From positions 70,997 to 134,996 of the forward strand of contig JAJYZB010000002.1 in NCBI GenBank assembly GCA_021800275.1: a stretch of DNA of 64,000 nucleotides, given 5' to 3'. Every line of letters starts with the position of its first letter. The first letter of the stretch is position 1. Source of the DNA: a bacterium. Lineage in GTDB: Bacteria; Vulcanimicrobiota; JABDET01. The notes beneath the pieces are model-generated. The model was not told the origin of the DNA, searched no databases, and worked only from the letters and a program-made list of their open reading frames with translations. Positions 10,202 to 50,674 of the stretch are shown one piece after another. Position numbers and translations under genes: made by a program.

Positions 10202-11906
10202 AGAGTTTGAAGCTCCTGTTTTCAAACCAAGCTCAAATGGAAAAAGAGGGAGCATTCTCCTTTTATCCCTCTTTATGATGATCATCTTATTTTTATTGGG
10301 AACTGCTCTCTTTGTACTTCTTCCCACTAATTTTTCCGTGATCATGAAAGAACAAAATGATGCTCAAGCCCGATATGCGGCAGATGCTGGCATTCAGGTG
10401 GCTTCTGCCCTGATTTCTGATGATATTCAAAACGGAGAAGCTGACGAAATTCCTGGAGAACTAGATTCCTCTTCTGGCAGTCCACTTGCTCCTTGGAAGT
10501 ATCAAGTCCAAATAACTCCTGGAGCAGAAAACGGCTCAGGTTCTTTATTAAGTTATGCTCTTGAATCCACTGGAACCAATGGAACTTTCAGCAAAAGGAT
10601 CACCACTGTGATTGAACAGGAAAGTTTTGGAGAGTATCTTGTTTTTACTAATTCAGAAATAGCCCCGGATGGTTCGACACTCTGGTATGTTCCAGGACTA
10701 ACACTCATGGATGGACCTGTTTTTACCAATGGACAATTTAATGTTGACATCCCTGAGAATTATTATCAAGATGGGTTCTGCTGTGACAGCAGCGGAAATA
10801 ACCTCCCTCCATCCCCCTTTTTTCTCTCTACTGCAACAAGTGTCTCTCCTCCAAGCTACCAGTACCCTGACGGCGTGAATTATGGGGGTTCACCTCCTTA
10901 TGACAGCAGTGGAAACCCTATCCCAGGTGATTACGAAGATATTTATAAAGGGGGAAGATCCGATCTTATAACAGGAGCAAAACCCATCCCGTTTCCAACT
11001 GGATATCTAAATATTCAAGATGCTTCATGGGGTGGAAACAGCGGATTTCCAACGGCTTCAGGACTCTATGTGAACCAATCACTAATTGGGACCAGCGCTC
11101 CAACTCATGGAAGAGGAAATCCATCATCTCAAAATTACCCTTATGTTACAACTGGCATCTACGTTCAAGGAACTGTGAATCAAATCACTATGGGAACTGA
11201 TCCAGTTTCTGAAAATTCAACCACTACTCTATCTCAAGGAGCCTCTGTGTACAAAATTACTTATGTGAACACAAATCCAGTTACCCTTCCTGCGGAAACA
11301 ATTGTCAATGAAAAACCAATTTCAGGGCCCAGGACGATCAACACAAACTCCCTGATCATCCGAAATAATAACCAATATTTTATCTATCAAGGACTTTCCA
11401 ATGGAACTATTTTTGTTAATGGGAATATTGGCTCCAGTTCAAGAGGAGGAATTTTGGGAAAAATTAAAGGGAAATACAGTGTCGCAGCCATTGGAAATCT
11501 CTATATTGATGGGAATCTTGATTATCAAGACACTCAGGCGGGGCAGCCCCCCACAAATTCCAATGACCTGCTGGGACTAATTGGAACCAATGTGATTATT
11601 GGAAACTCTGCTCCTTCCAATCTTACTATTTATGCCGATATCTATGCAGGAAAACAGAGCGACGGATCATTAAAAGGATGGGTCTATGCCCAAAATTTTG
11701 ATACAAGACAAACTGGAACTCTGCAGTTATTCGGCGGAGTAGTTTCAGTTTACCGTATTACAACTGGAATGATTGATCTTTACACTGGTGAAATGTTGAG
11801 TGGATACGCAAAAACACTCCACTATGACCCCCGCCTAGCCCAAACTCCTCCCCCTTATTTTCCAACAACAGGAAAGTTCAGAACGATTTACTGGCATGAA
11901 GAATAA
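10134..11906 (+). CDS. Large PilX-N-like minor pilin / pseudopilin-associated protein with G/N/S/T-rich extracellular region
   Basis: GAGGTG 8 nt before the ATG; 'KRGSILLLSLFMMIILFLLGTALFVLL' resembles the PilX N-terminal domain; 590 aa. Confidence 0.45.
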   Translation: MQQDRIKLLPLRQSKSSSFHKSKEFEAPVFKPSSNGKRGSILLLSLFMMIILFLLGTALFVLLPTNFSVIMKEQNDAQARYAADAGIQVASALISDDIQNGEADEIPGELDSSSGSPLAPWKYQVQITPGAENGSGSLLSYALESTGTNGTFSKRITTVIEQESFGEYLVFTNSEIAPDGSTLWYVPGLTLMDGPVFTNGQFNVDIPENYYQDGFCCDSSGNNLPPSPFFLSTATSVSPPSYQYPDGVNYGGSPPYDSSGNPIPGDYEDIYKGGRSDLITGAKPIPFPTGYLNIQDASWGGNSGFPTASGLYVNQSLIGTSAPTHGRGNPSSQNYPYVTTGIYVQGTVNQITMGTDPVSENSTTTLSQGASVYKITYVNTNPVTLPAETIVNEKPISGPRTINTNSLIIRNNNQYFIYQGLSNGTIFVNGNIGSSSRGGILGKIKGKYSVAAIGNLYIDGNLDYQDTQAGQPPTNSNDLLGLIGTNVIIGNSAPSNLTIYADIYAGKQSDGSLKGWVYAQNFDTRQTGTLQLFGGVVSVYRITTGMIDLYTGEMLSGYAKTLHYDPRLAQTPPPYFPTTGKFRTIYWHEE

Positions 11907-36627: not shown

Positions 36628-36637
36628 TTGGCATAAA

Positions 36638-38533
36638 TTAAAGCTGATCTAAAGCTCTATCAATCACAGACGCTTTTTCGAGAGAAGGCTTTATATTTTC
36701 TACTGCTGGGATTTTTAAAACAAACTGACTCCCCTCCCCCTTCTTGCTTTTCACCTGAATTTCCCCACCCATTGATTTGATAATTCCAAAACTGACTGAC
36801 AATCCTAACCCTGTCCCTTTTCCGATCTCTTTTGTCGTGAAAAACGGATCAAAAATTTTAGAAAGATTCTCTTCTGAGATTCCGCAGCCATTATCCGAAA
36901 TGCGCAAAATACTTTCTCGAGAATCTCCAAAAATATTGATCTCAATCACACCTGGGTTTTCTTTTTTTTCAAAAATCGCGTCTCTGGCATTTGATATTAA
37001 ATTCGCAAGAACCTGTATTAAATTATCAGGAACTCCATACACAGGCAGGCAGTCTTGAAAATCCGCTTTAACTTGAATATTATCCAGAGTTAACTGCTTA
37101 TCCCATAAATTCAAAGCCGCTGCAGCAGCCTCCTCAAGCTTGAAATTCTTTTTTTCATCAGCAGATTTTCTGGAAAAATTTAAAAGTTTTTGAACGATTC
37201 CCTGACATCTCTGAGAAGCTTGAAGAATGGTTTCAACAGCATCTTTATCCTCAGGTTTCTGCTGCAGCTGCCAGGCATTCAACACAATGGCTCCAAGGGG
37301 ATTATTAATTTCGTGCGCAACTCCTGCGGCCAGCTGCCCAACAGCAGCCAGTTTACTAGTTTCAATCAGCTGCGCCTGCATTTTTTTTAAATGATCGTTC
37401 GCCTGCAGGACTTCCTGATACAAAAAACTATTATTGACAGATGAAGAAATCTGACCCGCTAAAATCGTCAGAAATTTCTCCTGCTCTTCTCCAATGAAAG
37501 GGCGGCTGAGAAGCAGATATCCCAGGATTTCTCTTTCTGTTCTGAGAGGAATGACAGCTAGGGGAAGAAGGGCTTTAGGAAAAAGATGAGTGGGATGTTT
37601 GATGACACTCGTCAATTCGCCTTTTTCATTTAGAAAATCATTCTCCATCAAAGTCTCGGGCAGAGGGCTTCTCTCAAACTCCCCACAAGAATTTTTTTTA
37701 CAAAAAGAATCTTTCTCTTTTAAATAGATACTCACTCCAGAGGCTTTCAGTTTTTCCATAAGACCCATTAAAATCTCAGGAGCCATCTTCTGAAAATCCA
37801 AAGCCGCGGACAATTTTTTAGAAAGTTCGTAAATAATTTGCAGCTTTTCTTTTTCAACGTAAGATTTAAATCCAAATTTAAAAACAAAAAAAGCCACAAA
37901 AAATGAAACTGGGATAAAAAGAAAAAGGGGAGTTGAAAGGGAATGCTTTGCAATCGGAACAAAAGGCGCTAAAAGATAAAAAGGCAGTTCGAAAGCATAT
38001 CCGGCGCCAATCTCTTTTAATGAGAACTTCTCTTGAAATCTTCCAGCTTGAAAGACAAATGTCGTAAAATCGGTAAGAAGATGAAAAATAACAGCTGCTG
38101 CCAAAGGAAAAAATAAAGCATCTGAAAAGTTAAAAAAGTTTATTTTGCCCCCAATCTGTCCATAAAATAGAGAGGTCAGTCCTGTTGTGAAAGTATATCT
38201 GCTCACATTTGAAAAAATGGTATCAAAATTTATGCGGCCTTTTCTAACGAAGAAAAAAATAAGGAAGCCAAAGAAAACGGGTAGAACAGTTTGATTTCCC
38301 CATAATAAAATATAACAAAAAATCAGCGGATTTTCAAATCCAAAAGTAATGCTTGACCAGGGAAGTCGAACATACGTAAAAAGGGCGAGAACCAGAAATA
38401 CAGCTCCTAAAACAGTCTCTGTCCAATGGCTGAAAGGATGGCGCAAAAAAGCGCGCGCTAAAAATAAAATTGACACAATAGAGATAAGAATCTCAACAGC
38501 TAAGAATTTAAATCTCTTCTTATTAATGCTCAA
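36638..38533 (-). CDS. Membrane sensor histidine kinase (multi-TM N-terminus, HisKA plus HATPase_c)
   Basis: 'AAGVAHEINNPLGAI' H-box; 'ISDNGCGISEENLSKIFDPFFTTK' and 'GTGLGLSVS' ATPase motifs. Confidence 0.8.
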   Translation of the reverse strand: MSINKKRFKFLAVEILISIVSILFLARAFLRHPFSHWTETVLGAVFLVLALFTYVRLPWSSITFGFENPLIFCYILLWGNQTVLPVFFGFLIFFFVRKGRINFDTIFSNVSRYTFTTGLTSLFYGQIGGKINFFNFSDALFFPLAAAVIFHLLTDFTTFVFQAGRFQEKFSLKEIGAGYAFELPFYLLAPFVPIAKHSLSTPLFLFIPVSFFVAFFVFKFGFKSYVEKEKLQIIYELSKKLSAALDFQKMAPEILMGLMEKLKASGVSIYLKEKDSFCKKNSCGEFERSPLPETLMENDFLNEKGELTSVIKHPTHLFPKALLPLAVIPLRTEREILGYLLLSRPFIGEEQEKFLTILAGQISSSVNNSFLYQEVLQANDHLKKMQAQLIETSKLAAVGQLAAGVAHEINNPLGAIVLNAWQLQQKPEDKDAVETILQASQRCQGIVQKLLNFSRKSADEKKNFKLEEAAAAALNLWDKQLTLDNIQVKADFQDCLPVYGVPDNLIQVLANLISNARDAIFEKKENPGVIEINIFGDSRESILRISDNGCGISEENLSKIFDPFFTTKEIGKGTGLGLSVSFGIIKSMGGEIQVKSKKGEGSQFVLKIPAVENIKPSLEKASVIDRALDQL

Positions 38534-39149: not shown

Positions 39150-40172
39150 TCACGCCTCCTGGTGATTTTTTAGTGATTTTGTGAATCCATCGGGATGTTT
39201 TTTATGCCATTGATAGGCTGAAGAAAGAATTTTATCAAGAGATTGGCATTGGGGAACCCAGGACAGCTCCTGGCGAATTTTTTTAGAACTGGCGACAAGA
39301 ACAGCAGGATCCCCGGGTCTTCTTCCCGCAGTCTGAACAGGAACTTTTCTGCCCGAAATTTTCTCCAGATTTTCAATAACCTCTCTCACACTGTACCCTT
39401 TTTCACTCCCGATGTTATAGACTGTTGAAGCTAAACCCTTATCAAGGGCTTCTGCGGCTAAAAAATGCGCCTGAGCCAGATCCCAAACATGAACATAATC
39501 TCGGATACAGGTTCCATCTGGAGTGGGATAGTCCATTCCATACATAGAAAGAAAAGGGATCAAGTTAAGGGACGCTTGACAGGCTAAAGGAATCAGATGG
39601 GATTCAGGAAGATGTGCCTCTCCTAAATTACCGGAAGGATGGGCTCCAGAGGCATTAAAATAACGGAGACAGACTGAACGAATCCCAAAACTTCTCTCAT
39701 ACACCTGGAGCATCTCTTCCATCATCAATTTTGTCAATCCATAAGGACTTGTCGGCCTCAAAGGAAAGCTTTCTGATATTGGATTCTCAACCGGTTCTCC
39801 ATAAACAGCTGCTGAAGAAGAAAACAGAACCCAGGGAATCCGACATTTCCTGACAACTTCTAAAAAGGGAATCGCTTTTGAGACATTATTCTCAAAATAC
39901 TTTCCTGGATTTTTCACGGATTCTCCAACCTCAATGAACCCTGCAAAATGCAGCACCCCAGCCACAGGATAAGTATTGAATATTTGGTTTAGAATTTCTA
40001 CATCTGAAATATCAGACTGAAAAAAAGGAATGTCAGCAGGAACCGCTTCTCTGTACCCTTTTGACAAATTATCCAGAATAATGCACTTTTTTTCCCTCTC
40101 AAGAAAAAAACTTAAAACATGACTGCCTACGTATCCAGCAGCACCTGTGAAAAGATAATACTTTTGGGACAT
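39150..40172 (-). CDS. galE: NAD-dependent epimerase, UDP-glucose 4-epimerase-like
   Basis: 'FTGAAGYVGSH' Rossmann motif; 340 aa with GalE-like overall layout. Confidence 0.8.
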   Translation of the reverse strand: MSQKYYLFTGAAGYVGSHVLSFFLEREKKCIILDNLSKGYREAVPADIPFFQSDISDVEILNQIFNTYPVAGVLHFAGFIEVGESVKNPGKYFENNVSKAIPFLEVVRKCRIPWVLFSSSAAVYGEPVENPISESFPLRPTSPYGLTKLMMEEMLQVYERSFGIRSVCLRYFNASGAHPSGNLGEAHLPESHLIPLACQASLNLIPFLSMYGMDYPTPDGTCIRDYVHVWDLAQAHFLAAEALDKGLASTVYNIGSEKGYSVREVIENLEKISGRKVPVQTAGRRPGDPAVLVASSKKIRQELSWVPQCQSLDKILSSAYQWHKKHPDGFTKSLKNHQEA

Positions 40173-40354
40173 GTCAGGGATCGTTCTTGTCCTCTATTGT
40201 TTCTCCTTTTCTTCTTTTTTCTTCATTTTCCACAGATTTTTGACATCGCATTATATTTATGTCAGATTATTGTCTTGAACTTAAAATTTTAAAAAAAATG
40301 AAGATTGACTATTTCACAATTGTCGTGATATTAAAAACAAGAACCTCAACAAGA

Positions 40355-40384
40355 TTTACAAAATGTTAAACTTCTTGTCATAAC
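40355..40384 (+). promoter_or_regulatory. Sigma70-like promoter (TTTACA-N18-CATAAC) with a conserved AAAATGTTAAACTT spacer motif
   Basis: About 50 nt upstream of the 40436 gene; 24 of 31 positions are shared with the 43123-43153 element. Confidence 0.4.
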
Positions 40385-40435
40385 TTAGCAGCAAGAAAGT
40401 GTTATGATAAGGGGAACAGCAGGAGGGTGAGAATT

Positions 40436-41716
40436 ATGGGCGGCATTAGCGTAGCATTAGGAAACATAGAAAAATCTGCAGTTAATTCAGTTGATAATAT
40501 TGGAAATACGCTTGGACATGATCTCGGCATAAACAAACCAGCGACTCCACCACCCCAGACACAAACTCCTGATGTTCAAACACAGACACAAGCTCAGGGT
40601 GGAACTCAGCCCCAAACTCAGGATAAAACCTCAATCTTATCCCAAGCAAAATCCACTCTCACAAACTTTGGTCATTCTGTGGCAGGGGCTTTAGGAGTCG
40701 GTAAAACCAGCGCAGGCGCTGTGGCGACTGCTGCAGTCACAGGAGGTGCAGTGGCAGGACCCCTTGGAGCTGCTGCAGCAGGTGGAGTAACGGCAGCAGT
40801 TGTGGGTGGAGCAAGTCTTGCAGCTAATCAGGAAAACAAACAAGGGGCAGATGCTAGCGCAGGCTCAATTCTTAAAGATAATCTTGTCAGTGGAGTAACA
40901 GGAATTGGCCAGGATCTAGGACTGCTTCAAAATTCTCCTCTCACAAAGACAGGTTATCCTCCAATTTATGGAGGAACTCAAGCACAGGCGAATCAAATCT
41001 GGGGATACATGGACGGAAAACCTCCTATGCCTCTTGCTGACAGGCAAGCCGTTCATTCCATCCATGTGGGATCCAATTACACAACAGGAGCTTTTCAAAC
41101 TGTGGCTAAAGGAGCGAATGGACAAGACCAGAATTTCGGAGATATTTATCTCAATACAAATGATTTAAAAAATCAAGGGCAGTATGTTGTTCTTCATGAA
41201 TCAGGACATGCGGTAGAAATACACAATGGAACCTTACAGGGTCCGACAGCGAGTGTCTGGAATGGACCAGATATCTACGGCACAGCTGCAGCTGATTCTC
41301 AAGCAGGGGAAGCGAATAATCCAGCAGCAGAAACTTTTGCTGATGCTTATGCAGCATATTACAGTGGAAATGGAGCTGCTCTGCAGAAAGTTGCTCCCCA
41401 GGAATATAATGCCATTGCATCAGGAGCTTACAAAGCCCAGGGACCTTCAACTGTTACTACAGGAGATCAAGTGATGAGTGGACTCACTAATTTTGGAGAG
41501 GCAGTCTCCTCTGGAATTGGGTGGTTAGGAAACACAATTGGAGGAGCTGTTGGAGCAGGGTTAGCCGCTGCGGGGAATGGCTTTCTAGCGAATACCGGAT
41601 TTGGAGCCAATGCTTTTGCAGGATCAGCTGCTCCTGTTTTGCAAGGAATAGGAGCTGGCAATCTGGCGGATAATTCTGCTGGCGGCGGACCGAGGGTTCC
41701 AGTCTGGGGTGGGTAA
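40436..41716 (+). CDS. HExxH zinc-metallopeptidase-like protein with anthrax-lethal-factor-like (ATLF / M34-like) catalytic core and Gly/Ala-rich flanks
   Basis: 'VVLHESGHAVE' followed ~40 aa later by 'AAETFADAYAAYY' (HExxH plus E-x-F-A-E/D-A-F/Y); AGGAGG 9 nt before the ATG at 40436 (ORF track opens at the GTG at 40427). Confidence 0.5.
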   Translation: MGGISVALGNIEKSAVNSVDNIGNTLGHDLGINKPATPPPQTQTPDVQTQTQAQGGTQPQTQDKTSILSQAKSTLTNFGHSVAGALGVGKTSAGAVATAAVTGGAVAGPLGAAAAGGVTAAVVGGASLAANQENKQGADASAGSILKDNLVSGVTGIGQDLGLLQNSPLTKTGYPPIYGGTQAQANQIWGYMDGKPPMPLADRQAVHSIHVGSNYTTGAFQTVAKGANGQDQNFGDIYLNTNDLKNQGQYVVLHESGHAVEIHNGTLQGPTASVWNGPDIYGTAAADSQAGEANNPAAETFADAYAAYYSGNGAALQKVAPQEYNAIASGAYKAQGPSTVTTGDQVMSGLTNFGEAVSSGIGWLGNTIGGAVGAGLAAAGNGFLANTGFGANAFAGSAAPVLQGIGAGNLADNSAGGGPRVPVWGG

Positions 41717-41727
41717 GAATATGCAGA

Positions 41728-43089
41728 ATGTTTGTGTCTAAAAATAAAAATTATTCTTTACAGGTTTATCTAGGATTTTTAAATTTAACAGCATTTTTTT
41801 GTTTATTTTTCTCATTGCACAAAAACTCTTTTGATATCAGCGAAGTCTTACTAGGATTCTGGGTTCTCCTTTTCTTTTTTGCGAATATGCTTTCAACAAA
41901 AGTTTTTATAAAAAATTTCGAAATGTACTTAAATGTTTCTTCTGCCATCAGCACAGCGAGTTATTTTCTATTCGGTTTAACCCCTTGCCTTTTAGTCATT
42001 ATCTTCGGATTTTCAAGTTTTTTTCTATGGAAGCGATGGCATTTTTATAAGTGGGCAGGAACAGTCTCATTTTGGGTGATCAGTTATTCGATTGATAGTT
42101 TTTTTATTTCTCTAATTCAAACCCCTTTTTCTTATCCATGGATTATCGTAAAGGTGATTGTTTTTCAAGCGATTTTTATTCTACTTGGAACCCTTCTTGC
42201 TGATCTTCTCATCAGTTTTGGGCAAAAAATTTCATTAAAAACACTTTTACTTTCAGAAACAAAAGAAGTTTTGTCAGGAAATCTCATGGAAACTTTCATT
42301 TATTCCATGCTTGCCTGCATCCTGATGTCTCTCTGGCTCCACACCCCCTGGGCAGTCTCCCTTCTTTTCATTCCATTTTACGGATTAAAACTCGTGATGG
42401 AAAGCGGACAGAAAATTCAAGCTGAACTGGCAAAAGCCATGAATGCCTTAAATGACATTTTAGAGGCAAAAGATGAATACACTGAACGGCATACAGATCG
42501 AGTGGCTAAATATGCAGTGATCATTGCTAAACATTATGGAGGGTTCTCTGATGAACAATTAGACCTGATCGCCAAAGTGGGGAAGATTCATGATGTCGGA
42601 AAAGTGATGGTCAGAGATGATGTATTGAAAAAACCAGGAAAATTAACTCCTGAAGAATATGAACACATCAAACTTCATGTCCAGAAAGATTTTGTCACAA
42701 ATACAATCCCTCCTGAATATCCGCTTGCCAAATGGCTGCAGCTTGCCAGACTGCATCATGAACGATATGATGGCAAAGGATATCCGTTTGGATTAAAAGG
42801 AGAAGAAATTCCGATAGAACTCAGAATTATCTCTGTGGCTGATGCCTGGGATGCCATGACCACCCGCAGGGTTTATCGGGCAAGTCTCGCAAATGACACC
42901 GCTCTGCAAACTCTTAAAGAGGGGGCTGGAACTCAATGGGATCCAACCGTTATCAACGCTTTCTTCAAAGCTTATGATTCAGGACAAATTCAAGCGCTTC
43001 AAGCTGAACACAAAGCAAAGCTGCAAAAGCAGAAATGGGATGCCCTTCAAAAACTAGACCAGTATCTGTCTCTTGAAAGCAGTCTTTAA
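41728..43089 (+). CDS. Membrane-anchored HD-GYP phosphohydrolase, paralogue 1
   Basis: Multi-TM N-terminus; 'KIHDVGKV' and 'HHERYDGKGYP' HD-GYP motifs; starts 11 nt after the metallopeptidase-like gene. Confidence 0.8.
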   Translation: MFVSKNKNYSLQVYLGFLNLTAFFCLFFSLHKNSFDISEVLLGFWVLLFFFANMLSTKVFIKNFEMYLNVSSAISTASYFLFGLTPCLLVIIFGFSSFFLWKRWHFYKWAGTVSFWVISYSIDSFFISLIQTPFSYPWIIVKVIVFQAIFILLGTLLADLLISFGQKISLKTLLLSETKEVLSGNLMETFIYSMLACILMSLWLHTPWAVSLLFIPFYGLKLVMESGQKIQAELAKAMNALNDILEAKDEYTERHTDRVAKYAVIIAKHYGGFSDEQLDLIAKVGKIHDVGKVMVRDDVLKKPGKLTPEEYEHIKLHVQKDFVTNTIPPEYPLAKWLQLARLHHERYDGKGYPFGLKGEEIPIELRIISVADAWDAMTTRRVYRASLANDTALQTLKEGAGTQWDPTVINAFFKAYDSGQIQALQAEHKAKLQKQKWDALQKLDQYLSLESSL

Positions 43090-43098
43090 CCCAGAGCC
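42331..43098 (+). repeat. Direct repeat copy 1 (3' part of HD-GYP paralogue 1)
   Basis: Aligns base for base with 44108-44875 at a constant 1777 bp offset; the 3' portion is nearly identical by eye. Confidence 0.8.
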
Positions 43099-43123
43099 AT
43101 AGGCTTAAGACCGGAGACCAAAA

Positions 43124-43153
43124 TTTACAAAACGTTAATCTTTCCATCATAAT
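43124..43153 (+). promoter_or_regulatory. Sigma70-like promoter (TTTACA-N18-CATAAT) with a conserved AAAACGTTAATCTT spacer motif
   Basis: About 50 nt upstream of the 43204 gene; near-duplicate of the 40355-40384 element. Confidence 0.4.
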
Positions 43154-43203
43154 GCTGCAATACTTGTATGTTATACTAAAACCAGGAAGAGGAGGCATTA
43201 ATA

Positions 43204-43488
43204 ATGAATGTAGCCTTGATTCGTTCTCACAACACAGGAAGCATTGTTTCAGGCAGCACAGGAACAGCCGCAGCAAAAGCTCTTAATACTGCTCCCCCAC
43301 ATGTCAACTCTCAAGTCCGAGACACAGCTTCAATTTCGTCCCCAACAGTGGATGCTTTTGCAAAATTCCACAATTCCATAAAAGGAGCATTAGACGGCAC
43401 CAGTGGAAGTAAAGAGAAGAATTCTCCAAAATTTCATCATAAAAACCACGGCAAAATCACAATAGGGATTGGAAACCCACATCCTTAA
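43204..43488 (+). CDS. Small S/T/G-rich hypothetical protein
   Basis: 94 aa ORF with AGGAGG 8 nt upstream of the ATG; its stop lies inside the apparent start region of HD-GYP paralogue 2. Confidence 0.45.
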   Translation: MNVALIRSHNTGSIVSGSTGTAAAKALNTAPPHVNSQVRDTASISSPTVDAFAKFHNSIKGALDGTSGSKEKNSPKFHHKNHGKITIGIGNPHP

Positions 43489-44866
43489 GGAGTCACAAGA
43501 AAACCTCTTGTCAGAACCTAAGAATCTCTCCTTAAGAATTTTCCGCTGTGCTTCAATTATAATTGGAATTACAGCTTTTCTTTATGGAACTTTTCACTCC
43601 AACGCAGCAGTAAATCTTTTTTCTCTTTTTGTTTGGAGCTTATTTCTTTTTTGCGCCAGTATGCTGGAATGTAAAATCTCAATTAAAAATCTCACTTTCT
43701 ACTTGGATATTTCTAATGCCATTGGAATTGGAGCTTATTTTCTTTTTGGATTAAAATTCTTTCTGCTGGTTCTAGGGTTAGGAAAACTGATGTTTTATCT
43801 ATTGAAAAAATACCCTCTTTATCCCTGGTGGGCTCAAGCCATTACTTTCTGGTGTATTTCTTATGTAATCCCAAGCTTATTTATCCCATACAATTTAGTT
43901 CATCTCACTTTCCCAGAAAAAATACTTCATATTATCCTTTTCTCGGTAATCTCAGGTCTAATTTTAATTCTGCTTATGGATCTTTTAAACGGTTTTCAGG
44001 AGAATATCTCTCTAAAAGAAATGCTCATGATCGAAATAAAAGAAGGGCTATTTATAGATTTTATCCAGATCTTCATTTTTGCCATGCTTTCCTTTGACTT
44101 AATCTTCCTCTGGCTCCACACCCCCTGGGCAGTCCCCCTTCTTTTCATCCCATTTTACGGGTTAAAACTCGTGATGGAGAATGGCCAGAAGATCCAGGCT
44201 GAACTGGCAAAAACCATGAATGCCTTGAATGACATTTTAGAAGCCAAAGATGAAGACACAGAAAAACATACTGAAAGGGTTTCTAAATATGCCGTGATCA
44301 CTGCTAAACATTATGGAGGATTTTCTGATGAGCAATTAGACCTGATCGAAAAAGTGGGAAAACTCCATGATGTCGGAAAAATTTTGGTCAGAGATGACGT
44401 ATTGAAAAAACCAGGCAAATTAACTCCTGAAGAATATGAACACATCAAACTTCATGTCCAGAAAGATTTTGTCACAGATACAATCCCTCCTGAATATCCG
44501 CTTGCCAAATGGCTGCAGCTTGCCCGACTGCATCATGAACGATATGATGGCAAAGGATATCCGTTTGGATTAAAAGGAGAAGAAATTCTGATAGAACTCA
44601 GAATTATTTCAGTGGCTGATGCCTGGGATGCCATGACCACCCGCAGGGTTTATCGGGCAAGCCTCTCAAACGAAACCGCGCTGCAGACTCTAAAGGAAGG
44701 GGCTGGAACTCAATGGGATCCAACCGTTATCAACGCTTTTTTCAAAGCTTATGATTCCGGAGAAATTCAAGCGCTTCAAGCTGAACACAAAGCAAAGCTG
44801 CAAAAGCAGAAATGGGATGCCCTTCAAAAACTAGACCAGTATCTCTCCCTTGAAAGCAGTCTTTAA
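43469..44866 (+). CDS. Membrane-anchored HD-GYP phosphohydrolase, paralogue 2
   Basis: Same motifs as paralogue 1; the N-terminal TM region also aligns; the start at 43469 is a TTG and is uncertain. Confidence 0.8.
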   Translation: METHILKESQENLLSEPKNLSLRIFRCASIIIGITAFLYGTFHSNAAVNLFSLFVWSLFLFCASMLECKISIKNLTFYLDISNAIGIGAYFLFGLKFFLLVLGLGKLMFYLLKKYPLYPWWAQAITFWCISYVIPSLFIPYNLVHLTFPEKILHIILFSVISGLILILLMDLLNGFQENISLKEMLMIEIKEGLFIDFIQIFIFAMLSFDLIFLWLHTPWAVPLLFIPFYGLKLVMENGQKIQAELAKTMNALNDILEAKDEDTEKHTERVSKYAVITAKHYGGFSDEQLDLIEKVGKLHDVGKILVRDDVLKKPGKLTPEEYEHIKLHVQKDFVTDTIPPEYPLAKWLQLARLHHERYDGKGYPFGLKGEEILIELRIISVADAWDAMTTRRVYRASLSNETALQTLKEGAGTQWDPTVINAFFKAYDSGEIQALQAEHKAKLQKQKWDALQKLDQYLSLESSL

Positions 44867-44875
44867 CCCAGAGCC
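44108..44875 (+). repeat. Direct repeat copy 2 (3' part of HD-GYP paralogue 2)
   Basis: See copy 1; both copies end with the same stop context 'TAACCCAGAGCC'. Confidence 0.8.
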
Positions 44876-45037
44876 GCCTCAAAAATATTCTGAGCGCTTT
44901 TTAAACAAAAAGTAAACTTAAAAACGCGAAGTTAATTTTCGGTGAACATTTGCTGACTGCCGTTGACTCTTAAAATTTTGTCGTGTAAAATATAATTAGT
45001 GAAGAGCAGTAAAAAATAAATGGAGAGGAGAAGTGCT

Positions 45038-46429
45038 ATGACATTTACGTTTGATGATGTGTTTGAGAGTCATTTAGATTTCCCCGAAAAATCTCTTTAT
45101 TTTTTCGATCTTTTTTTAGCGGCAACTCTTATTTGCCTTGCTGCCGTTACTCTGCTTTTCCCTTTTCACTTCAACCTGCAAACTTTTCTTTTATGGGGAA
45201 TTTTAGCGTGGGTAGGGCACAGACGCAAATTTTTTCTAAAAATCAAACAAACTTCTTACACCCTGGATCTCGCGCATCCAATTTATCTGGCTGCATTCTT
45301 CCTCCATGGACTTCCTTTTGCTCTCTGGGTTTTCACTGCTTCAGGAGCGATTCAAGTTATTCTCGCAAACAAAGGTATCAGGCGCTTTGGTCTGGAAGTA
45401 GGAACCACTGTTTTAATCTCAACCCTCATCTATTCAATCCCATTTTTCCGTTCACCCATCAATAAAACTAATTTGCCCCAAGCTCTGCTCTTCATCCTGT
45501 TATTTCAGGCTCTTTATGTTCCATTTCATGCCATGATGCTCAGACTTTTTCAAGGAAGACGAACCAATCTCAAATCTTTCGAAAAAAATTCAAAAGAAAC
45601 ATTCGACTTGCTAAATATTAAAGAAATAATAGAGGAATTGGGTTTTCAACCCTTTCTATCCAGTCTGGTCATTCTAATTTCTTTATGGCACGAACTTTTA
45701 ATCCTCTTCTTTTTCTTGTTCGTGTCAGACATAATTTTTTCCCTGGAAGAACAATCCCGCCTTGGGAGAGGACTCGAGCAGACCACCCAAATTTTAAATC
45801 AAGCCCTCTTGACAAAAGATGGAACCACAGAACGCCATACCGAAAGAGTCAGGAGATATGCGGAACTCATTGCCAAAGAAATGAGACTCTCTCCTAAAGA
45901 AATTGAAAAAATTGGCTGGGCTGCTAAACTCCATGACATTGGAAAACTCTTTATTAAAGACGAAGTGTTAAAAAAAGCGTCTAATTTAACACAGAACGAA
46001 TACGAACACATCAAGCTTCACGTAAAACTGGATAACCTTCTGGATCCTTTGTTTAAAATACACAATCCCCTTGCTGAATTCATACACGTGGGGAGACTGC
46101 ACCATGAACGATACGATGGACAAGGATACCCTTTCGGATTAAAAGCGTCAGAAATCCCGCTTGCAGCTCGCATTATTTCTGTTGCTGATGCCTGGGATGC
46201 CATGACTTCCAACCGCCCCTATCGAAAACCCTTTGAGGAAAAACTAGCTCTGAAAATCTTAAAACAGGGGGCAGGGACTCAATGGGATCCTGAAGTTGTT
46301 TTCATCTTTAATCACCTGTATGATTCTCCAGAAATGATGGGCATCAGAAATGAATATCAGGATTGGAAAAAAACCGAAACAAAAAGAACACTGCAGAGAT
46401 TCGCAAGGCTCCTGGCATTTGAGACGTAA
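45038..46429 (+). CDS. Membrane-anchored HD-GYP phosphohydrolase, paralogue 3 (more divergent)
   Basis: 'KLHDIGKL' and 'HHERYDGQGYP'; GAGAGGAG 8 nt before the ATG at 45038 (ORF track opens at 45020). Confidence 0.75.
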   Translation: MTFTFDDVFESHLDFPEKSLYFFDLFLAATLICLAAVTLLFPFHFNLQTFLLWGILAWVGHRRKFFLKIKQTSYTLDLAHPIYLAAFFLHGLPFALWVFTASGAIQVILANKGIRRFGLEVGTTVLISTLIYSIPFFRSPINKTNLPQALLFILLFQALYVPFHAMMLRLFQGRRTNLKSFEKNSKETFDLLNIKEIIEELGFQPFLSSLVILISLWHELLILFFFLFVSDIIFSLEEQSRLGRGLEQTTQILNQALLTKDGTTERHTERVRRYAELIAKEMRLSPKEIEKIGWAAKLHDIGKLFIKDEVLKKASNLTQNEYEHIKLHVKLDNLLDPLFKIHNPLAEFIHVGRLHHERYDGQGYPFGLKASEIPLAARIISVADAWDAMTSNRPYRKPFEEKLALKILKQGAGTQWDPEVVFIFNHLYDSPEMMGIRNEYQDWKKTETKRTLQRFARLLAFET

Positions 46430-46545
46430 GCCTGTTTTTCACACGATTGCAGAAATTCACGCAGCAGGACATGATCGCGTGGAATAACAATTATCACGCT
46501 GCAAGAGGATTTTTAAAAACCGTCTCGAACAAGCAATCAAGGTTT

Positions 46546-47460
46546 ATGAACGTGCGAAAAATAATTCTGCTGCTGAACATCTATCTGTTTTTATCGCTCA
46601 CCGCTTTTGCCTCTACATACTGGCATTATGCGGGATATGACATTTCCCCAGATGGTCTGATGCTCTCAAACTGGACAATCTCTGGACCTGCCGGTGGACC
46701 TAATCCAAGGTTATCCCATCCTCTTGGGAAAGCCATTTACGCGACTTTTACCCTGACCAATGTCAGCGATCAACCCATTCTTCTAACGAAAATTTATGTG
46801 GCATGTCATTATACGGGAAAGGCTCAAAAAATTCAAGCAGAACAAAAAGAAGATTTCGGCTTTCTTCAAAATGTAAGATTGAACCCTGGAGAATCTAAAA
46901 CTTTAACAGCGAGCTTTCCTTTAAACAAAACAGGAAATTGGAGACTCTGGCCTGCCTACAGGATTGGAAAAATTAAAAGCCACATCAGGTGGCATGATGT
47001 GATTTTAAGAGTCAGCAGAAGAGCTCTAGGTTTATTAGGCGGGATTCAATATTACAGAGGACCTGAAATAGTAAAAAGAGATGGACTCGAAGTGACAAAC
47101 TTCAAGTTGCATACCGTCAAAAATCCAAAAGTTGGAGATTATGCTGTTGTTGATTTTGACATTACCAATACAACCCAATATCGAATTTCTCTCAGCCCAA
47201 ATGGACTTTTTGTGTCTGCCAGAGACAATTATCCAACCGTGATTAAAAATTTTGGATTTAAATCCATTGTTCTTTCTCCCGGGCAAAGCGCCCATGTTCA
47301 TGCTGCCAGAGTGATGGATGGGAAAGGATTGTGGATGTTCTGGGCAGGCTACCAGATTAAGAAAGGCAAAAACACCTATTTTGGCAGAACAGTGACAACG
47401 ACTGGAGATATTTCACCTTTTAAATGGCATGATTTAGATGTGATTGTTCACGGCCACTAA
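46546..47460 (+). CDS. Secreted hypothetical protein built from two homologous domains
   Basis: ATG at 46546 gives a signal-peptide-like '[23 protein letters not shown]'; the two halves end in similar 'W..WPAYRIGK...WHDVIL' and '[11 protein letters not shown]...WHDLDVIV' segments. Confidence 0.5.
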
Positions 47461-47471
47461 GGGCTTGCTCA

Positions 47472-49268
47472 ATGCCCTCACGACAATCTCTAATCCGCAA
47501 TTTTTCTATTATTGCTCATATTGATCACGGAAAAAGCACGCTGGCTGACCGCCTTCTTGAAATCACTGGTTCCATCTCAAAGCGAGAAATGCAGGATCAA
47601 ATTTTAGACAGCCATCCTCTTGAAAAAGAAAGAGGAATTACAATCAAAGCTCACCCTGTTCAGCTGCATTACAAAGCTAAAAATGGATCTATTTATACCC
47701 TCCACCTTATTGATACTCCTGGCCATGTAGATTTCAATTATGAAGTTTCTCGATCTCTAGCAGCCTGCGAAGGAGCTCTTCTGGTGGTGGATGGAACTCA
47801 AGGAGTAGAAGCCCAGACTCTTGCCAATTATCTCCTGGCTGTTGAAAACATGCTGACCATTATCCCTGTCATCAATAAAATTGACCTGCCAACCGCTGAA
47901 CCCGATCGAGTTGAAAAAGAACTAAACGAACATCTTCTTCTAGAACCCTCAAAAATTTTAAAAGTAAGTGCAAAACAGGGAACTGGAATTGACGAAATCC
48001 TGGAGATGATTGTTGAAAAAATCAAACCCCCGGCAGGGAGCCCTGAATCCCCTCTCCGCGCTCTAATTTTTGACTCACATTATAACGCTTATCGTGGAGT
48101 CGTTGTGTCAGTCCGTGTGGTAGATGGAATTCTTAAAGCGCAGCAGAGGATCAAGATGATCTCAACTGAAAAAGAATATATTGTTGAAGAAGTAGGCGTT
48201 TTTACTCCTGAAATGAAACCCGTTGAACAAATTGAAGCTGGGGAAGTCGGTTATGTGATCGCCGGCATAAAAACAATCAGTGACACGCAGGTAGGAGACA
48301 CATTGACACATGCTGAACGCCCTGCCCTTCAGCCTCTTCCAGGGTATCGCAAAGTCACCCCAATGGTTTACTGCGGGTTTTATCCAATCGAAAATTCAGA
48401 TTATCTCTCTTTAAAAGATGCGCTCGAAAAACTAAAACTAAATGACTCCTCTTTATTTTATGAACCAGAAACATCGGCCGCTTTAGGATTTGGATTTAGA
48501 TGCGGATTTTTAGGGCTTCTCCACATGGAAATCATTCAAGAACGGCTGGAAAGAGAATACACCTTAACCCTTTTATCCACTGCTCCTAATGTGGTCTATC
48601 ACATTAAAACAGGCGACGGGAAAAACCATGTTATTCATAATCCGGCTGACTGGCCTGATGGAAAAATTGAAATAGTTGAAGAGCCATTTGTAAAAGCCAT
48701 CCTTTTTACTCCTGAAGAATATGTTGGATCTCTGATGGACATCTGTCAAATGAAGAGAGGAATTTACCAGCATCTGGAATATCTATCTCCTGGAAAAGTG
48801 GAGCTCCAGTATGAGCTTCCTCTTGCAGAAGTGATTACTGATTTCTATGATCAACTAAAAAGCAGAAGCCATGGTTACGCCTCTATTGATTATGAATTCT
48901 CAGGATACAAAGCTTCTGATCTGGTTAAACTTGAAATTTTGATCGCTGAAGAGGTTGTGGATGCTTTAAGTTATATTATCCATAGAGATAATGCCCAGCA
49001 GTTAGGGCGTTCTCTGGCAAATAAATTAAGAGAAGTGATTCCCAGGCAGTGGTTCGATGTCCCTATTCAAGCTGCGATTGGCGGCAAAATCATCGCTAGA
49101 GAAAATATAAAAGCGATGAGGAAAAATGTGCTTGCCAAATGTTATGGAGGAGACATAACCCGGAAAAGAAAGCTTCTAGAAAAACAAAAAGAGGGAAAGA
49201 AAAGAATGAAACAGTTAGGTAAAGTTGAAATTCCTCAAGAAGCCTTCTGGGCAATCCTAAAATTATGA
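47472..49268 (+). CDS. lepA: Translation elongation factor 4 (LepA)
   Basis: '[20 protein letters not shown]' G1 motif, 'DTPGHVDF', full-length 598 aa. Confidence 0.95.
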
Positions 49269-50674
49269 TCGAAAAAATCCTTGTCGTAGATGACGACCCC
49301 CATATCCTTTATCTTTTGAGAATCACTTTAAAAACAGAAGGATTTGTGGTTGTCACATGCCAGGATGACCACGGTCTTTTAGAAGTCATTAAAAAAGAAA
49401 AACCCAATCTTTTGATTCTAGATATCCTGCTGCCTGAGACAAACGGCTGGGATATCTGCAAACAGTTGCGAAAAGAACCTGAAACCAGCCAACTTCCTAT
49501 CATCTTTTTGTCTGCCCTGCCTTTGAAGGAAAAAGAAAGACTTCTTTTATCAGAATTAAACATCTTCGACTATATCACAAAACCGTTCGAACCTACTTCT
49601 CTTCTTGCAAAAGTAAAGAACCTTTTTGGAGTGCCCCAATCCCTGCGTCATCTCCTTCTTAAAACTTCTGATAAACCAGAAATAAAAAGAGGAATCTCCA
49701 CAAAAAAAGAAGAGGTTGTGATCATGGGAGCTGGACTTGCAGCTGTGGCAGCTGCAGAATCCTGCGCCAAGATGGGAATAGAACCATTAGTCATCAGCCC
49801 CTGGCCCTTTCTAGGAGGAGAAGTTTTAGCTTTGTATTCTCTTCTTCTACCAGCAGATGCACTGGAATGGAAAAACGAGAAAATTTTTCGCCTCCTGGAG
49901 AAACGAGAAAATATCAGATTTATAAAAGCTTTAAATAATTTTGTCCTTGATCCCGAAGGGGTCCGCCTGTCTGTCTATCAGATTCTGAAAGACTGCAGCG
50001 CTCCTTTTTATCTAAACAACCATCTTCTGGATATTATTCGAGAAGGAACAACTGTAAAGGGGGTCGTTGTAGAAGGAGAAAATGGCCCTGAAAGAATTGA
50101 AAGTAAAATCGTGATTGACGCAACTCTCGATAATAAAGCCAGTGAGATCGCTGGCATCCCCATTATTCATGAAAAAATAGAAGCAGAGGGAAATTTTATT
50201 TGGGGAGGAGTGGATGGAAATGCTTTCGAGAAAAGCCAGGAATCTGGAAAATTCACCTGGGGATGGAAACTCGAACTTCTGCCTTCCCTCAAAGAAGCTG
50301 TTCTGCTGAATGTAAAAATGGGTGAAGACTGGGAATCTTTCTTTTATGAAGGGATTGAAAAGCTGACCCTGTCTCTGAGAGAAAAGATCCCGGGATTTGA
50401 AAAAACATACTTATTGAGAAGGCCCCTCCATATTATGCTTGAAAAAAGAAAAATTTCCATGAGTTCATTCCCAGGTTATGGAAACATTATCCCTAAAACT
50501 TATGATCACATTCTAGTTGTTCAATCCTCTCCACTTGACCTCGGGAACTTTTACAAATCGGGAAAAATCGCCGGAATATTGGCAGGAATTTCAGTTTCGT
50601 TAAATCAAAATCCAAAAGAAATTGAATCCGGAATCATTCGAGAGCATCTTGAAAAAGAAGGAATCCATATCTGA
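49265..50674 (+). CDS. Receiver (REC) domain fused to an FAD/NAD(P)-binding oxidoreductase-like domain
   Basis: '[14 protein letters not shown]...[15 protein letters not shown]' REC; '[21 protein letters not shown]' dinucleotide-binding motif; start overlaps the lepA stop (ATGA). Confidence 0.6.

What the first reader, a model, noticed from the sequence alone, without database searches (positions are those of the whole stretch)
41728..46429. Three tandem membrane HD-GYP paralogues, two with a near-identical 3' segment
Paralogues 1 and 2 align across their full length, but by eye the last ~480 bp are almost identical while the 5' portions have diverged, and the identity continues past the stop codon (TAACCCAGAGCC). 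This pattern suggests recent gene conversion homogenising the catalytic domain while the sensor domains diversify. The direct repeats 1.8 kb apart could also mediate deletion or amplification.
Basis: seen in the sequence. Interest (0 to 1): 0.5.

Follow-up and report, generated by a model that had tools for sequence, protein, structure and literature searches.

The report
Tandem HD-GYP genes exchanging catalytic halves
Two neighbouring membrane c-di-GMP phosphodiesterase genes have old, very different sensor halves, but their catalytic halves are kept alike by ongoing gene conversion, and the switch point is also the edge of a strain-variable sensor cassette in the sister species.

Summary

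**The repeat.** g1 (41728-43089) and g2 (43469-44866) are about 50% identical over the first ~600 nt. They are 92% identical over 768 nt, at an exact 1777-nt offset, up to 9 nt past both stop codons.

**Evidence for conversion.**
- Synonymous divergence is saturated in the 5' part and 0.67 then 0.16 in the 3' part. Orthologues in the sister species show 0.9-1.9 throughout.
- The 3' halves are sisters in 100% of bootstraps; the 5' halves are not.
- In three other assemblies of the same species, 21 of 22 SNPs are clustered switches to the other copy's base, in both directions.

**Context.**
- All sampled relatives carry only g1- and g3-type genes.
- In the sister species, a ~1.2 kb block has three discrete alleles (dS 0.4-0.75) inside DNA that is 97-100% identical. 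The block covers the 3' half of the upstream orphan gene U plus the g1-type sensor half.
- That block ends within ~17 nt of the g1/g2 switch point.
- g2 carries its own U-like promoter and a 94-aa ORF.
- The sensor half is a divergent MASE9-like domain whose predicted fold resembles ECF S-components.

The mechanism itself is known. The polymorphic partner/sensor cassette is moderately novel, and its function is only inferred.

The parts
40343..40435 (+). Promoter/5'UTR region of gene U. It contains the TTTACA...CATAA element and an AGGAGG ribosome-binding site.
   Evidence: Conserved with the sister species and with the region upstream of U' (alignment A2; repeat D10).
40436..41716 (+). Gene U (426 aa), a lineage-restricted orphan. 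It has a Gly/Ala/Gln/Thr-rich N-terminal half, a central HExxH-containing region and a Gly/Ala-rich, moderately hydrophobic C-terminal tail. In the sister species its 3' ~600 nt belong to the hypervariable cassette.
   Evidence: Only 4 clusters among 5.8 billion proteins. No Pfam or NCBIfam family; ATLF at E = 0.12 only. The allelic block starts about 575 nt before the g1-type start codon. Composition and hydropathy.
41728..42321 (+). g1 sensor half: an integral-membrane, MASE9-like domain with a predicted ECF S-component-like fold. This is the specificity allele of g1.
42322..43098 (+). Repeat copy 1. It covers the last TM helix, the linker helix, the HD-GYP domain, the stop codon and 9 nt beyond (g1 3' part).
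   Evidence: Ungapped match to 44099-44875 with 65 differing sites in 777. In L180, seven sites at 42324-42384 carry the g2 base.
43112..43203 (+). U-like promoter/5'UTR upstream of U'. It has TTTACA-18-CATAAT at 43124-43153 and a GAGGAGG ribosome-binding site.
   Evidence: 62 of 95 ungapped matches to the region upstream of U in L005; 0 of 2000 shuffles reach this. Alignment A2. Promoter scan.
43204..43488 (+). U' (94-aa ORF) in the position that U holds before g1. Possibly a decayed or short derivative of U.
   Evidence: Called as a gene in all assemblies and has a strong SD. Homology to U is not significant: BLASTP finds nothing, and hhalign gives E = 0.09 for a collinear 30 columns.
43469..44098 (+). 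g2 sensor half, a second and much more divergent allele of the same membrane domain. The start is at TTG 43469 or TTG 43508.
   Evidence: 36-39% aa identity to every g1-type allele and 29% to L169. pS to g1 is 0.75-0.76, above the g1-orthologue value of 0.52 (p = 1.5e-4).
44099..44875 (+). Repeat copy 2 (g2 3' part plus 9 nt).
   Evidence: As for copy 1. In L181, nine sites at 44662-44698 carry the g1 base. In L004, five sites at 44477-44611 carry the g1 base.
42640..42884 (+). Youngest layer of shared sequence: 98% identical to 44417-44661, with pS 0.04-0.10.
44876..45037 (+). Ancestral intergenic region between a g1-type gene and g3.
   Evidence: Aligns with the g1-type-to-g3 spacer of the sister species (alignment A5).
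45038..46429 (+). g3, an old HD-GYP paralogue with its own membrane domain. It is present and conserved in the sister-species contigs and is not part of the conversion; the more distant L169 has only a 286-aa HD-GYP gene in this position.

Best explanation
**What the genes are.** g1 and g2 are two receptor-type c-di-GMP phosphodiesterases. They share one output module: the last TM helix, a signalling helix and the HD-GYP domain. Their integral-membrane sensor modules (MASE9-like, ECF S-component-like fold) are different and old.

**What keeps the 3' parts alike (shown).** The ~0.78 kb 3' module of the two genes is kept alike by repeated short-patch gene conversion, with tracts of tens to about 250 nt. 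Conversion runs in both directions and is still going on in the population.

**Why conversion stops at codon ~198 (inferred).** That point is the junction between the sensor and output modules. Upstream of it the copies are too diverged (~50%) for homologous exchange. Selection probably also preserves two distinct sensor specificities.

**The same junction in the sister species (shown).** It is the right-hand edge of a ~1.2 kb hypervariable cassette made of the 3' half of the upstream orphan gene U plus the sensor half of the g1-type gene. The cassette exists as three discrete, ancient alleles on otherwise near-identical genomes.

**Origin of g2 (inferred).** g2 is a second [U-promoter, U-remnant, sensor, HD-GYP] module placed in tandem. 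It arose either by an old duplication retained only in this species or by capture of a divergent allele. This species therefore carries two sensor specificities feeding one kind of output.

**Function of the cassette (inferred).** Because U's C-terminal half and the sensor vary as one block, they probably act as a cognate pair: a ligand, a ligand-maker or a membrane partner together with its receptor.
For: - **Mosaic identity and synonymous divergence:**
- **Control:** the orthologous 3' parts have dS 1.5-1.9, so there is no special synonymous constraint.
- **Shared history of the 3' parts:** 127 sites have g1 = g2 but differ from the sister species, against 65 sites where g1 and g2 differ. 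NJ bootstrap for {g1,g2} is 100% in the 3' part.
- **Strain polymorphisms that are paralogue switches:** L181 9 of 10 SNPs, L004 5 of 5, L180 7 of 7. Chance probabilities are 8e-18, 6e-11 and 2e-17.
- **Relatives lack g2:**
- **Sister-species hypervariable block:** flanks are 97-100% identical with dS 0.01-0.07. The block has dS 0.40-0.75 and dN 0.18-0.23. There are three discrete allele classes on 8, 6 and 1 contigs. The last dense mismatch falls at gene nt 586-594, against 603 for g1/g2.
- **U-like promoter before U':**
- **HD-GYP identity:**
- **g2 is under purifying selection in the 3' part:** dN/dS about 0.12.
Against: - All data come from short-read metagenome assemblies, and no reads or long reads were available.
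- The L180 tract lies at a contig end, and the k used for the L004 assembly is unknown.
- Only one haplotype of the 5' halves is known for the window species, and only three haplotypes for the sister species. Co-variation of U and the sensor therefore cannot be separated from simple linkage within one recombination block.
- Homology of U' to U is not significant at the protein level.
- Whether g2 arose by old duplication or by import is unresolved. The position of its 5' half in the tree is poorly supported.
- No functional data exist for U or for the sensor. The structure prediction for U failed with pLDDT 29.
Confidence: 0.8

Rival explanations
1. A single duplication of uniform age. The 3' part only looks similar because the HD-GYP domain is under strong purifying selection, while the membrane half evolves freely.
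For: dN is low in the 3' part (0.04) and high in the 5' part (0.54-0.58). The HD-GYP core is conserved even in g3.
Against: Synonymous divergence differs about threefold or more between the halves (pS 0.75 against 0.27, p = 1e-16), and again within the 3' part. The same 3' part is saturated at synonymous sites between orthologues (dS 1.5-1.9). Identity extends 9 nt into non-coding DNA. The strain SNPs are paralogue switches.
Confidence: 0.02
2. Assembly artefact: one gene was mis-assembled into two copies, or the copies are chimeric.
For: All sources are short-read metagenome assemblies. Contig L180 begins exactly at the repeat boundary.
Against: Independent assemblies from three archives give the same arrangement. 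The copies differ at 65 sites and share at most 82 identical nt, below k = 141. Each copy has unique flanks and a distinct 5' half with an intact ORF.
Confidence: 0.02
3. No conversion was needed at the origin. The g2 module was imported from a moderately related lineage (about 8-9% diverged) that carried a very different cassette allele. On this view the 3' similarity is simply the donor-recipient genome divergence.
For: Hypervariable alleles sit on near-identical backgrounds in the sister species, so such alleles do move or persist independently of the genome. The two species co-occur in the same samples. The relatives lack g2.
Against: It does not explain the layered ages inside the 3' part (86.7%, 98%, 75.7% and 97.2% identity). 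It also does not explain the polymorphic paralogue-switch tracts in both directions. The promoter and U' are far more diverged than 9%. It can describe the origin, but conversion is still required afterwards.
Confidence: 0.25
4. The variable U C-terminus and membrane domain are a polymorphic toxin/immunity-like pair with a downstream 'orphan' module (U'-g2), rather than a signal/receptor pair.
For: The layout resembles CDI/Rhs loci: a variable C-terminal part of the upstream gene, a variable multi-TM protein immediately downstream, and a second module in tandem. U's tail is Gly/Ala-rich and moderately hydrophobic, like membrane-active bacteriocins (the comparison is from my own knowledge). U gives a faint ATLF/zincin hint at E = 0.12.
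Against: No toxin, immunity or defence family was detected, although PADLOC was not searched. The 'immunity' would be fused to an intact, purifying-selected HD-GYP enzyme, which points to signalling. U' lacks the variable C-terminal part altogether. The homology shared between modules lies downstream, not upstream as in orphan CT arrays.
Confidence: 0.15

Closest known systems
HD-GYP c-di-GMP phosphodiesterases with integral-membrane MASE9 sensors (T. maritima TM1467, S. venezuelae HdgA; Galperin & Chou preprint 10.1101/2021.11.05.467447). Solved HD-GYP domains: PmGH 4mcw, PA4781 4r8z, DvhD 9rbz.
   Same: - Pfam HD_5 is above the cut-off, and the HD and HHERYDGKGYP motifs are intact.
- The architecture is an N-terminal multi-TM domain followed directly by a helix and HD-GYP, as described for MASE9-HD-GYP.
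- A profile link to MASE9-positive clostridial homologues exists.
   Different: - The membrane domains of g1, g2 and g3 do not hit Pfam MASE9 themselves.
- phmmer finds the g1 domain only in its own cluster among 1.8 billion representatives.
- Tandem copies with converted output halves, and strain-level allelic sensor cassettes, were not mentioned in the passages of that survey that I read.
Concerted evolution of bacterial paralogues by gene conversion (for example tufA/tufB and rRNA operons; from my own knowledge).
   Same: Homologous exchange keeps part of two paralogues nearly identical within a genome while the orthologues diverge. Tracts are short and bidirectional.
   Different: Here conversion is confined to one functional module and stops at a domain junction. 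The result is two receptors with a common output and distinct inputs.
Pherotype loci: agrBDC of Staphylococcus and comQXP of Bacillus (PMC8768832 and PMC4408185; the details of the variable segments are from my own knowledge).
   Same: - A sharply bounded hypervariable block lies in otherwise conserved DNA.
- The block covers the 3' part of an upstream gene and the membrane sensor half of the downstream receptor, while the receptor's catalytic half is conserved.
- There are a few discrete, deeply diverged alleles; comQ clusters are 65-70% identical at the nucleotide level, and the block here is 55-88%.
- SNPs in the variable block are linked to each other but not to the flanks.
   Different: - The receptor output is an HD-GYP phosphodiesterase, not a histidine kinase.
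- No small pre-peptide gene or known processing enzyme is present.
- No evidence of a secreted signal was found.
- The second, tandem receptor with an orphan-like upstream ORF has no counterpart in agr or comQXP.
Polymorphic toxin/immunity loci with orphan modules (CDI, Rhs; from my own knowledge).
   Same: A variable C-terminal region of one gene is followed by a variable cognate gene, with an additional module downstream in tandem and recombination between modules.
   Different: No toxin or immunity domain was detected. The shared homology is the downstream catalytic domain. The downstream protein is a signalling enzyme.
ECF-transporter S-components (CbiM, RibU, FolT, BioY, ThiT).
   Different: There is no significant sequence similarity (6-17% identity). 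The domain is fused to HD-GYP rather than partnered with ECF T/A subunits. The similarity rests on a predicted model.

Membership tests
HD-GYP domain (c-di-GMP phosphodiesterase class II) | Sequence model match above the curated threshold | tested here: met
   Pfam HD_5 gives 98.6, 93.7 and 107.4 bits against a cut-off of 27.2 for g1, g2 and g3.
HD-GYP domain (c-di-GMP phosphodiesterase class II) | HD dyad and the HHExh(D/N)GxGYP motif (definition quoted) | tested here: met
   H288 and D289 are present, as is H343-H344-E-R-Y-D-G-K-G-Y-P353. These residues are invariant across alignment A4. They align with the PmGH motifs.
HD-GYP domain (c-di-GMP phosphodiesterase class II) | HD-GYP fold | tested here: met
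   [not shown]
HD-GYP domain (c-di-GMP phosphodiesterase class II) | c-di-GMP hydrolysis | not testable with these tools
   This needs an enzyme assay. In the PmGH alignment g2 has D four residues before the first conserved His, where PmGH has E; g1 reads KDEYTERH there, giving Y at that position. That this is PmGH's third-metal ligand is from my own recollection.
MASE9 membrane sensor domain (PF20972) | Match to the Pfam model | tested here: not met
   The membrane halves of g1, g2 and g3 give no hit at E up to 5.
MASE9 membrane sensor domain (PF20972) | Transitive homology through intermediate sequences | tested here: inconclusive
   The g1-type profile against the clostridial N-domain profile gives hhalign E = 1.4e-5, probability 80%, over 157 columns. 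Of six clostridial N-domains scanned, one passes MASE9 (32.4 bits against 24.3) and two are subthreshold at E about 0.1.
Gene conversion / concerted evolution between paralogues | Mosaic synonymous divergence with sharp boundaries | tested here: met
Gene conversion / concerted evolution between paralogues | Paralogues cluster by genome in the converted segment only | tested here: met
   {g1,g2} has 100% bootstrap support in the 3' part. In the 5' part g1 lies nearer to the sister alleles.
Gene conversion / concerted evolution between paralogues | Polymorphic tracts in which one copy carries the other copy's bases | tested here: met
   L181 (9 sites), L004 (5 sites) and L180 (7 sites). Caveat: these are assemblies, not reads.
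agr/comQXP-type pherotype locus | Hypervariable block spanning the upstream gene's 3' part and the receptor's sensor half, with conserved flanks and discrete alleles | tested here: met
   Shown in the sister species.
agr/comQXP-type pherotype locus | Secreted peptide signal, its processing enzyme, and a histidine-kinase receptor | tested here: not met
   No AgrB/AgrD or ComQ/ComX-like family was detected. The receptor output is HD-GYP. This is therefore an analogy, not membership.
agr/comQXP-type pherotype locus | Allele-specific activation and cross-inhibition | not testable with these tools
   This needs experiments.
Polymorphic toxin/immunity system | Recognisable toxin and immunity domains, or a pre-toxin conserved motif at the variable junction | tested here: not met
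   U has no Pfam or NCBIfam hit, and ATLF reaches only E = 0.12. The variable block starts inside the HExxH region, not at a domain junction.
ECF transporter S-component | Six-helix S-component fold | tested here: met
   [not shown]
ECF transporter S-component | Sequence family membership and partnership with ECF T/A components | tested here: not met
   No ECF or S-component Pfam hit was found. The domain is fused to HD-GYP. No ECF genes are adjacent.

The most novel reading that the evidence does not exclude
The locus is a self/non-self or 'pherotype'-type recognition system wired to c-di-GMP. On this reading the variable C-terminal part of the orphan protein U makes, or is, a strain-specific membrane-acting ligand. 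A matching hypervariable MASE9/S-component-like sensor reads that ligand and switches an HD-GYP phosphodiesterase. The window species has captured a second, orphan receptor (g2) for a foreign allele. Gene conversion keeps both receptors on an identical output module.
Probability: 0.2. Interest if true: 0.75.

Novelty: new variant of a known kind. Interest (0 to 1): 0.45.

Why it matters
Segmental gene conversion between tandem paralogues is a known process. Here it is caught in action in an uncultured lineage, and it is confined exactly to the output module of a sensor enzyme. That shows how a bacterium can hold several input specificities on one standardised c-di-GMP output.

The wider finding is a hypervariable block with discrete alleles that couples an orphan protein's C-terminus to the membrane sensor of an HD-GYP enzyme. 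It has the population-genetic signature of quorum-sensing pherotype loci, yet the read-out is a second-messenger phosphodiesterase. If that analogy holds, it would give a first candidate ligand system for a MASE-type membrane sensor, none of which has a known ligand as far as I know. It would also link kin or strain recognition directly to c-di-GMP.

Tried and rejected
- **Metagenome scan.** It returned only distant HD-GYP genes and no close relatives.
- **Homologue search with the g2 sensor half alone.** It returned nothing, not even g2 itself, probably because of filtering of the hydrophobic query.
- **phmmer of the g1 sensor half against 1.8 billion representatives.** It found only its own cluster.
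- **Structure prediction for U.** It failed with pLDDT 29, so no fold search was run on it.
- **afdb50 fold library.** It was unavailable.
- **Rfam.** There were no hits in the whole window at gathering score, or in 40100-47500 at E up to 1. No riboswitch is detected in the conserved leader upstream of U and U'.
- **Homology of U' to U.** BLASTP was not significant and hhalign gave E = 0.09, so the idea is kept only as a possibility.
- **Recent interspecies transfer of U's allele B.** It was rejected. The window and allele B share the protein sequence in U codons ~241-300 (pN 0.02-0.03), but pS there is 0.53-0.62, which is the interspecies level.
- **Direction of conversion from outgroup states.** It could not be resolved: 34 sites favour one direction and 23 the other.
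- **Taxonomy.** It could not be established. The record title says only 'bacterium', and no paper mentions the assemblies.


Full report
**1. What is in the sequence**

Three same-strand ORFs occupy 41728-46429:
- g1, 41728-43089, 453 aa.
- g2, 43469-44866, 465 aa from a TTG. A second TTG at 43508 aligns better with the g1 start.
- g3, 45020 or 45038-46429.

Residues 1-220 of each protein are hydrophobic, with 6-7 segments, and are modelled as a helical bundle. The description 'three tandem membrane HD-GYP paralogues' is therefore correct.

**2. The repeat**

g1 and g2 align without gaps at an offset of exactly 1777 nt from 42322/44099 to 43098/44875.
- BLAST gives 91% identity over 805 nt.
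- 42331-43098 is 92.2% identical, and there are 65 differing sites in 777.
- Upstream of 42322 identity falls to about 50%.
- Downstream, identity continues for 9 nt after both TAA codons and then disappears.

The block is layered:

| g1 coordinates | Identity to g2 |
|---|---|
| 42331-42639 | 86.7% |
| 42640-42884 | 98.0% |
| 42885-42921 (37-nt patch) | 75.7% |
| 42922-43098 | 97.2% |

The whole similar block is ~780 nt. No further copy exists in the window.

**3. Not an artefact**

The arrangement occurs in independent assemblies from ENA, NCBI (GCA_027371935.1) and JGI (3300039716) at 99.9-100% identity. L001-L003 contain both genes, L004 reaches most of g2, and L180 and L181 cover part of the array. 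The longest stretch identical between the two copies is 82 nt. That is shorter than k = 141, the k of the k141_* contigs, so graph collapse or chimeric joins are not expected there.

**4. Test of gene conversion against constraint**

Nei-Gojobori estimates for g1 against g2:

| Region | Synonymous divergence | dN |
|---|---|---|
| Codons 1-197 | pS 0.75-0.76 (saturated) | 0.54-0.58 |
| Codons 198-304 | dS 0.67 | not quoted |
| Codons 305-end | dS 0.16 | 0.015 |

- Fisher tests give p = 1e-16 for 5' against 3' and p = 1.5e-5 between the two 3' layers.
- The control matters. Between g1 and its orthologues in the sister species, the same 3' part has dS 1.5-1.9. The low values for g1/g2 are therefore not due to synonymous constraint.
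- In the 3' block, 127 sites are shared by g1 and g2 and differ from all sister-species sequences, against 65 sites where g1 and g2 differ.
- Neighbour-joining on the 3' part unites g1 and g2 in 100% of 500 bootstraps.
- In the 5' part, g1 is nearer to the sister-species alleles (distance 0.67) than to g2 (1.26). The placement of g2 is unresolved.
- The g1-g2 5' pS (0.75) also exceeds the g1-orthologue 5' pS (0.52, p = 1.5e-4).

The sensor half of g2 is therefore older than the species split, and the catalytic half is younger.

**5. Conversion caught in the population**

Three further contigs of the same species differ from the window almost only by clustered switches to the paralogue's base:

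| Contig | Sample | SNPs against the window | Switch tract | Tract length |
|---|---|---|---|---|
| L181 | ERZ27237019 | 10 in 2289 nt | 9 at g2 44662-44698, all the g1 base | 37-128 nt |
| L004 | JGI 3300039716 | 5 in 4420 nt | all 5 at g2 44477-44611, all the g1 base; back to the g2 state at 44662-44674 | 135-245 nt |
| L180 | ERZ27237364 | 7 in 10.5 kb | all 7 at g1 42324-42384, all the g2 base | not bounded on the left (contig end) |

The probabilities of such coincidences for random SNPs are 8e-18, 6e-11 and 2e-17. Exchange is therefore recent, short-patch and bidirectional.

Caveats:
- The L180 tract abuts the contig start, which lies exactly at the repeat boundary.
- The k used for the JGI assembly is unknown.
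- No reads were available.

**6. Relatives and copy number**

The closest genome in the GTDB representatives is L005, MAG YP4.bin17. Fourteen further contigs of that sister species were also examined. lepA dS to the window is 1.08. All of them carry only a g1-type and a g3-type gene. So does a more distant relative, L169.

The spacer between g2 and g3 in the window is homologous to the spacer between the g1-type gene and g3 in the sister species. The extra material is therefore [U-like promoter, U', g2 sensor half, one copy of the 3' block].

The 95 nt upstream of U' (43112-43206) match the promoter and leader of gene U at 62 of 95 positions, and 0 of 2000 shuffles reach this. This region has a promoter-like TTTACA-18-CATAAT and a strong Shine-Dalgarno sequence.

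U' (94 aa) is not significantly similar to U. It sits where U sits before g1, and its stop overlaps the g2 start region as U's stop abuts g1.

I infer that g2 is a second [U-sensor-HD-GYP] module whose U has decayed. Whether it is an old duplicate lost elsewhere or an imported allele cannot be decided. A deletion between the repeats would restore the relatives' arrangement without a scar.

**7. The unexpected context**

The sister-species contigs are 97-100% identical over more than 10 kb of flanks, with dS 0.01-0.07. A ~1.2 kb block is the exception, at 55-88% nt identity, dS 0.40-0.75 and dN 0.18-0.23. It runs from about 575 nt before the g1-type start, inside gene U, to nt 586-594 of the g1-type gene.

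The block exists as three discrete allele classes, found on 8, 6 and 1 contigs. U's 3' part and the sensor half always go together.

The right edge (nt 586-594) lies within about 17 nt of the g1/g2 switch point (nt 603). It is the junction between a polymorphic sensor cassette and a conserved output module.

Synonymous divergence between alleles approaches the interspecies level. The alleles are ancient or imported, not products of recent hypermutation. The two species co-occur in the same samples.

**8. What the parts may do**

*Gene U.* U (426 aa) is an orphan, with four clusters among 5.8 billion proteins. It has no family assignment. It contains an HExxH-bearing central region and a Gly/Ala-rich, moderately hydrophobic tail. 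Its structure prediction failed.

*The sensor half.*
- It has no direct Pfam hit.
- It is found only in its own cluster by phmmer.
- Its profile matches clostridial HD-GYP N-domains at hhalign E = 1.4e-5. One of those passes Pfam MASE9 and two are subthreshold.
- MASE9-HD-GYP is a described architecture, thought to bind its ligand within the membrane (10.1101/2021.11.05.467447).

*Inference.* U's C-terminal half and the sensor vary as one block. I infer that they form a cognate pair, and that g1 and g2 give this species two input specificities on one c-di-GMP-degrading output. This step is inference only.

**9. Comparison with known systems**

- The conversion itself is ordinary concerted evolution.
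- The population pattern is that of agrBDC and comQXP pherotype loci. Those have a variable block in linkage disequilibrium with itself but not with the flanks (PMC8768832). They also have a few clusters at 65-70% nt identity (PMC4408185).
- The defining components of those systems are absent here, so this is an analogy and not membership.
- A toxin/immunity reading is a weaker alternative.
- Full-text searches combining HD-GYP with hypervariable/polymorphism terms, and S-component/ECF with sensor domain and c-di-GMP, found no paper on such a cassette or fusion. That is only absence in the searchable library.

**10. Verdict**

- The gene-conversion interpretation is supported and is now backed by population evidence.
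- The novelty lies in the module-limited conversion and the allelic U/sensor cassette.
- Interest is moderate (0.45). It would be higher if the cassette proves to be a recognition system.

Noticed in passing
L005 about 9425-10594; L165 about 4640-5808; L167 1-940 (sister species). Corresponds to window about 41150-42320.: A ~1.2 kb hypervariable block covers the 3' half of orphan gene U plus the sensor half of the g1-type gene. It has three discrete alleles (dS 0.4-0.75) inside DNA that is 97-100% identical. The pattern resembles agr/comQXP pherotype loci.
   Followed up: yes
[not shown]
   Followed up: partly
window 40436-41716: Gene U is a lineage-restricted orphan with 4 clusters in 5.8 billion proteins. 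It has an HExxH motif (VLHESGHAVE; CESGH in the distant relative L169), a faint ATLF hint (E = 0.12) and a Gly/Ala-rich tail ending in WGG. AlphaFold gave pLDDT 29.
   Followed up: partly
L180 1-62 (window 42323-42384): This contig starts exactly at the 5' boundary of the repeat, and its first 62 nt carry g2-type bases in the g1 copy. It could mark a graph branch caused by another sensor allele or arrangement in that sample.
   Followed up: partly
window about 42486 (g1) against about 44263 (g2): In the PmGH alignment g2 has D four residues before the first conserved His, where PmGH has E (recalled as Glu185, the third-metal ligand). g1 and all sister alleles read KDEYTERH there, giving Y. This is a possible difference in metal centre between the paralogues.
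   Followed up: no
window 40173-40435, against L005 7985-8557 and L165 3274-3759: The sister species has an extra 161-190 aa ORF between the epimerase gene and U. The window lacks it.
   Followed up: no
window 49265-50674: A response-regulator receiver domain is fused to an FAD-dependent oxidoreductase domain (469 aa). It lies directly after lepA with a 4-nt overlap and is conserved in the relatives.
   Followed up: no
window 46447-47460: A protein of 304-337 aa between g3 and lepA has no family assignment, only faint hits to DUF1573 and Fn3-like. It is conserved in position in the sister-species contigs.
   Followed up: no
samples ERZ27237177, ERZ27237364 and JGI 3300039716: The window species and its sister species (lepA dS about 1.1) were assembled from the same samples. 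The two cassette-bearing lineages therefore coexist.
   Followed up: partly
window 34357-38533: A REC-BTAD regulator (756 aa) and a HisKA/HATPase histidine kinase (631 aa, opposite strand) lie just upstream of the locus. They are conserved in the sister species.
   Followed up: no
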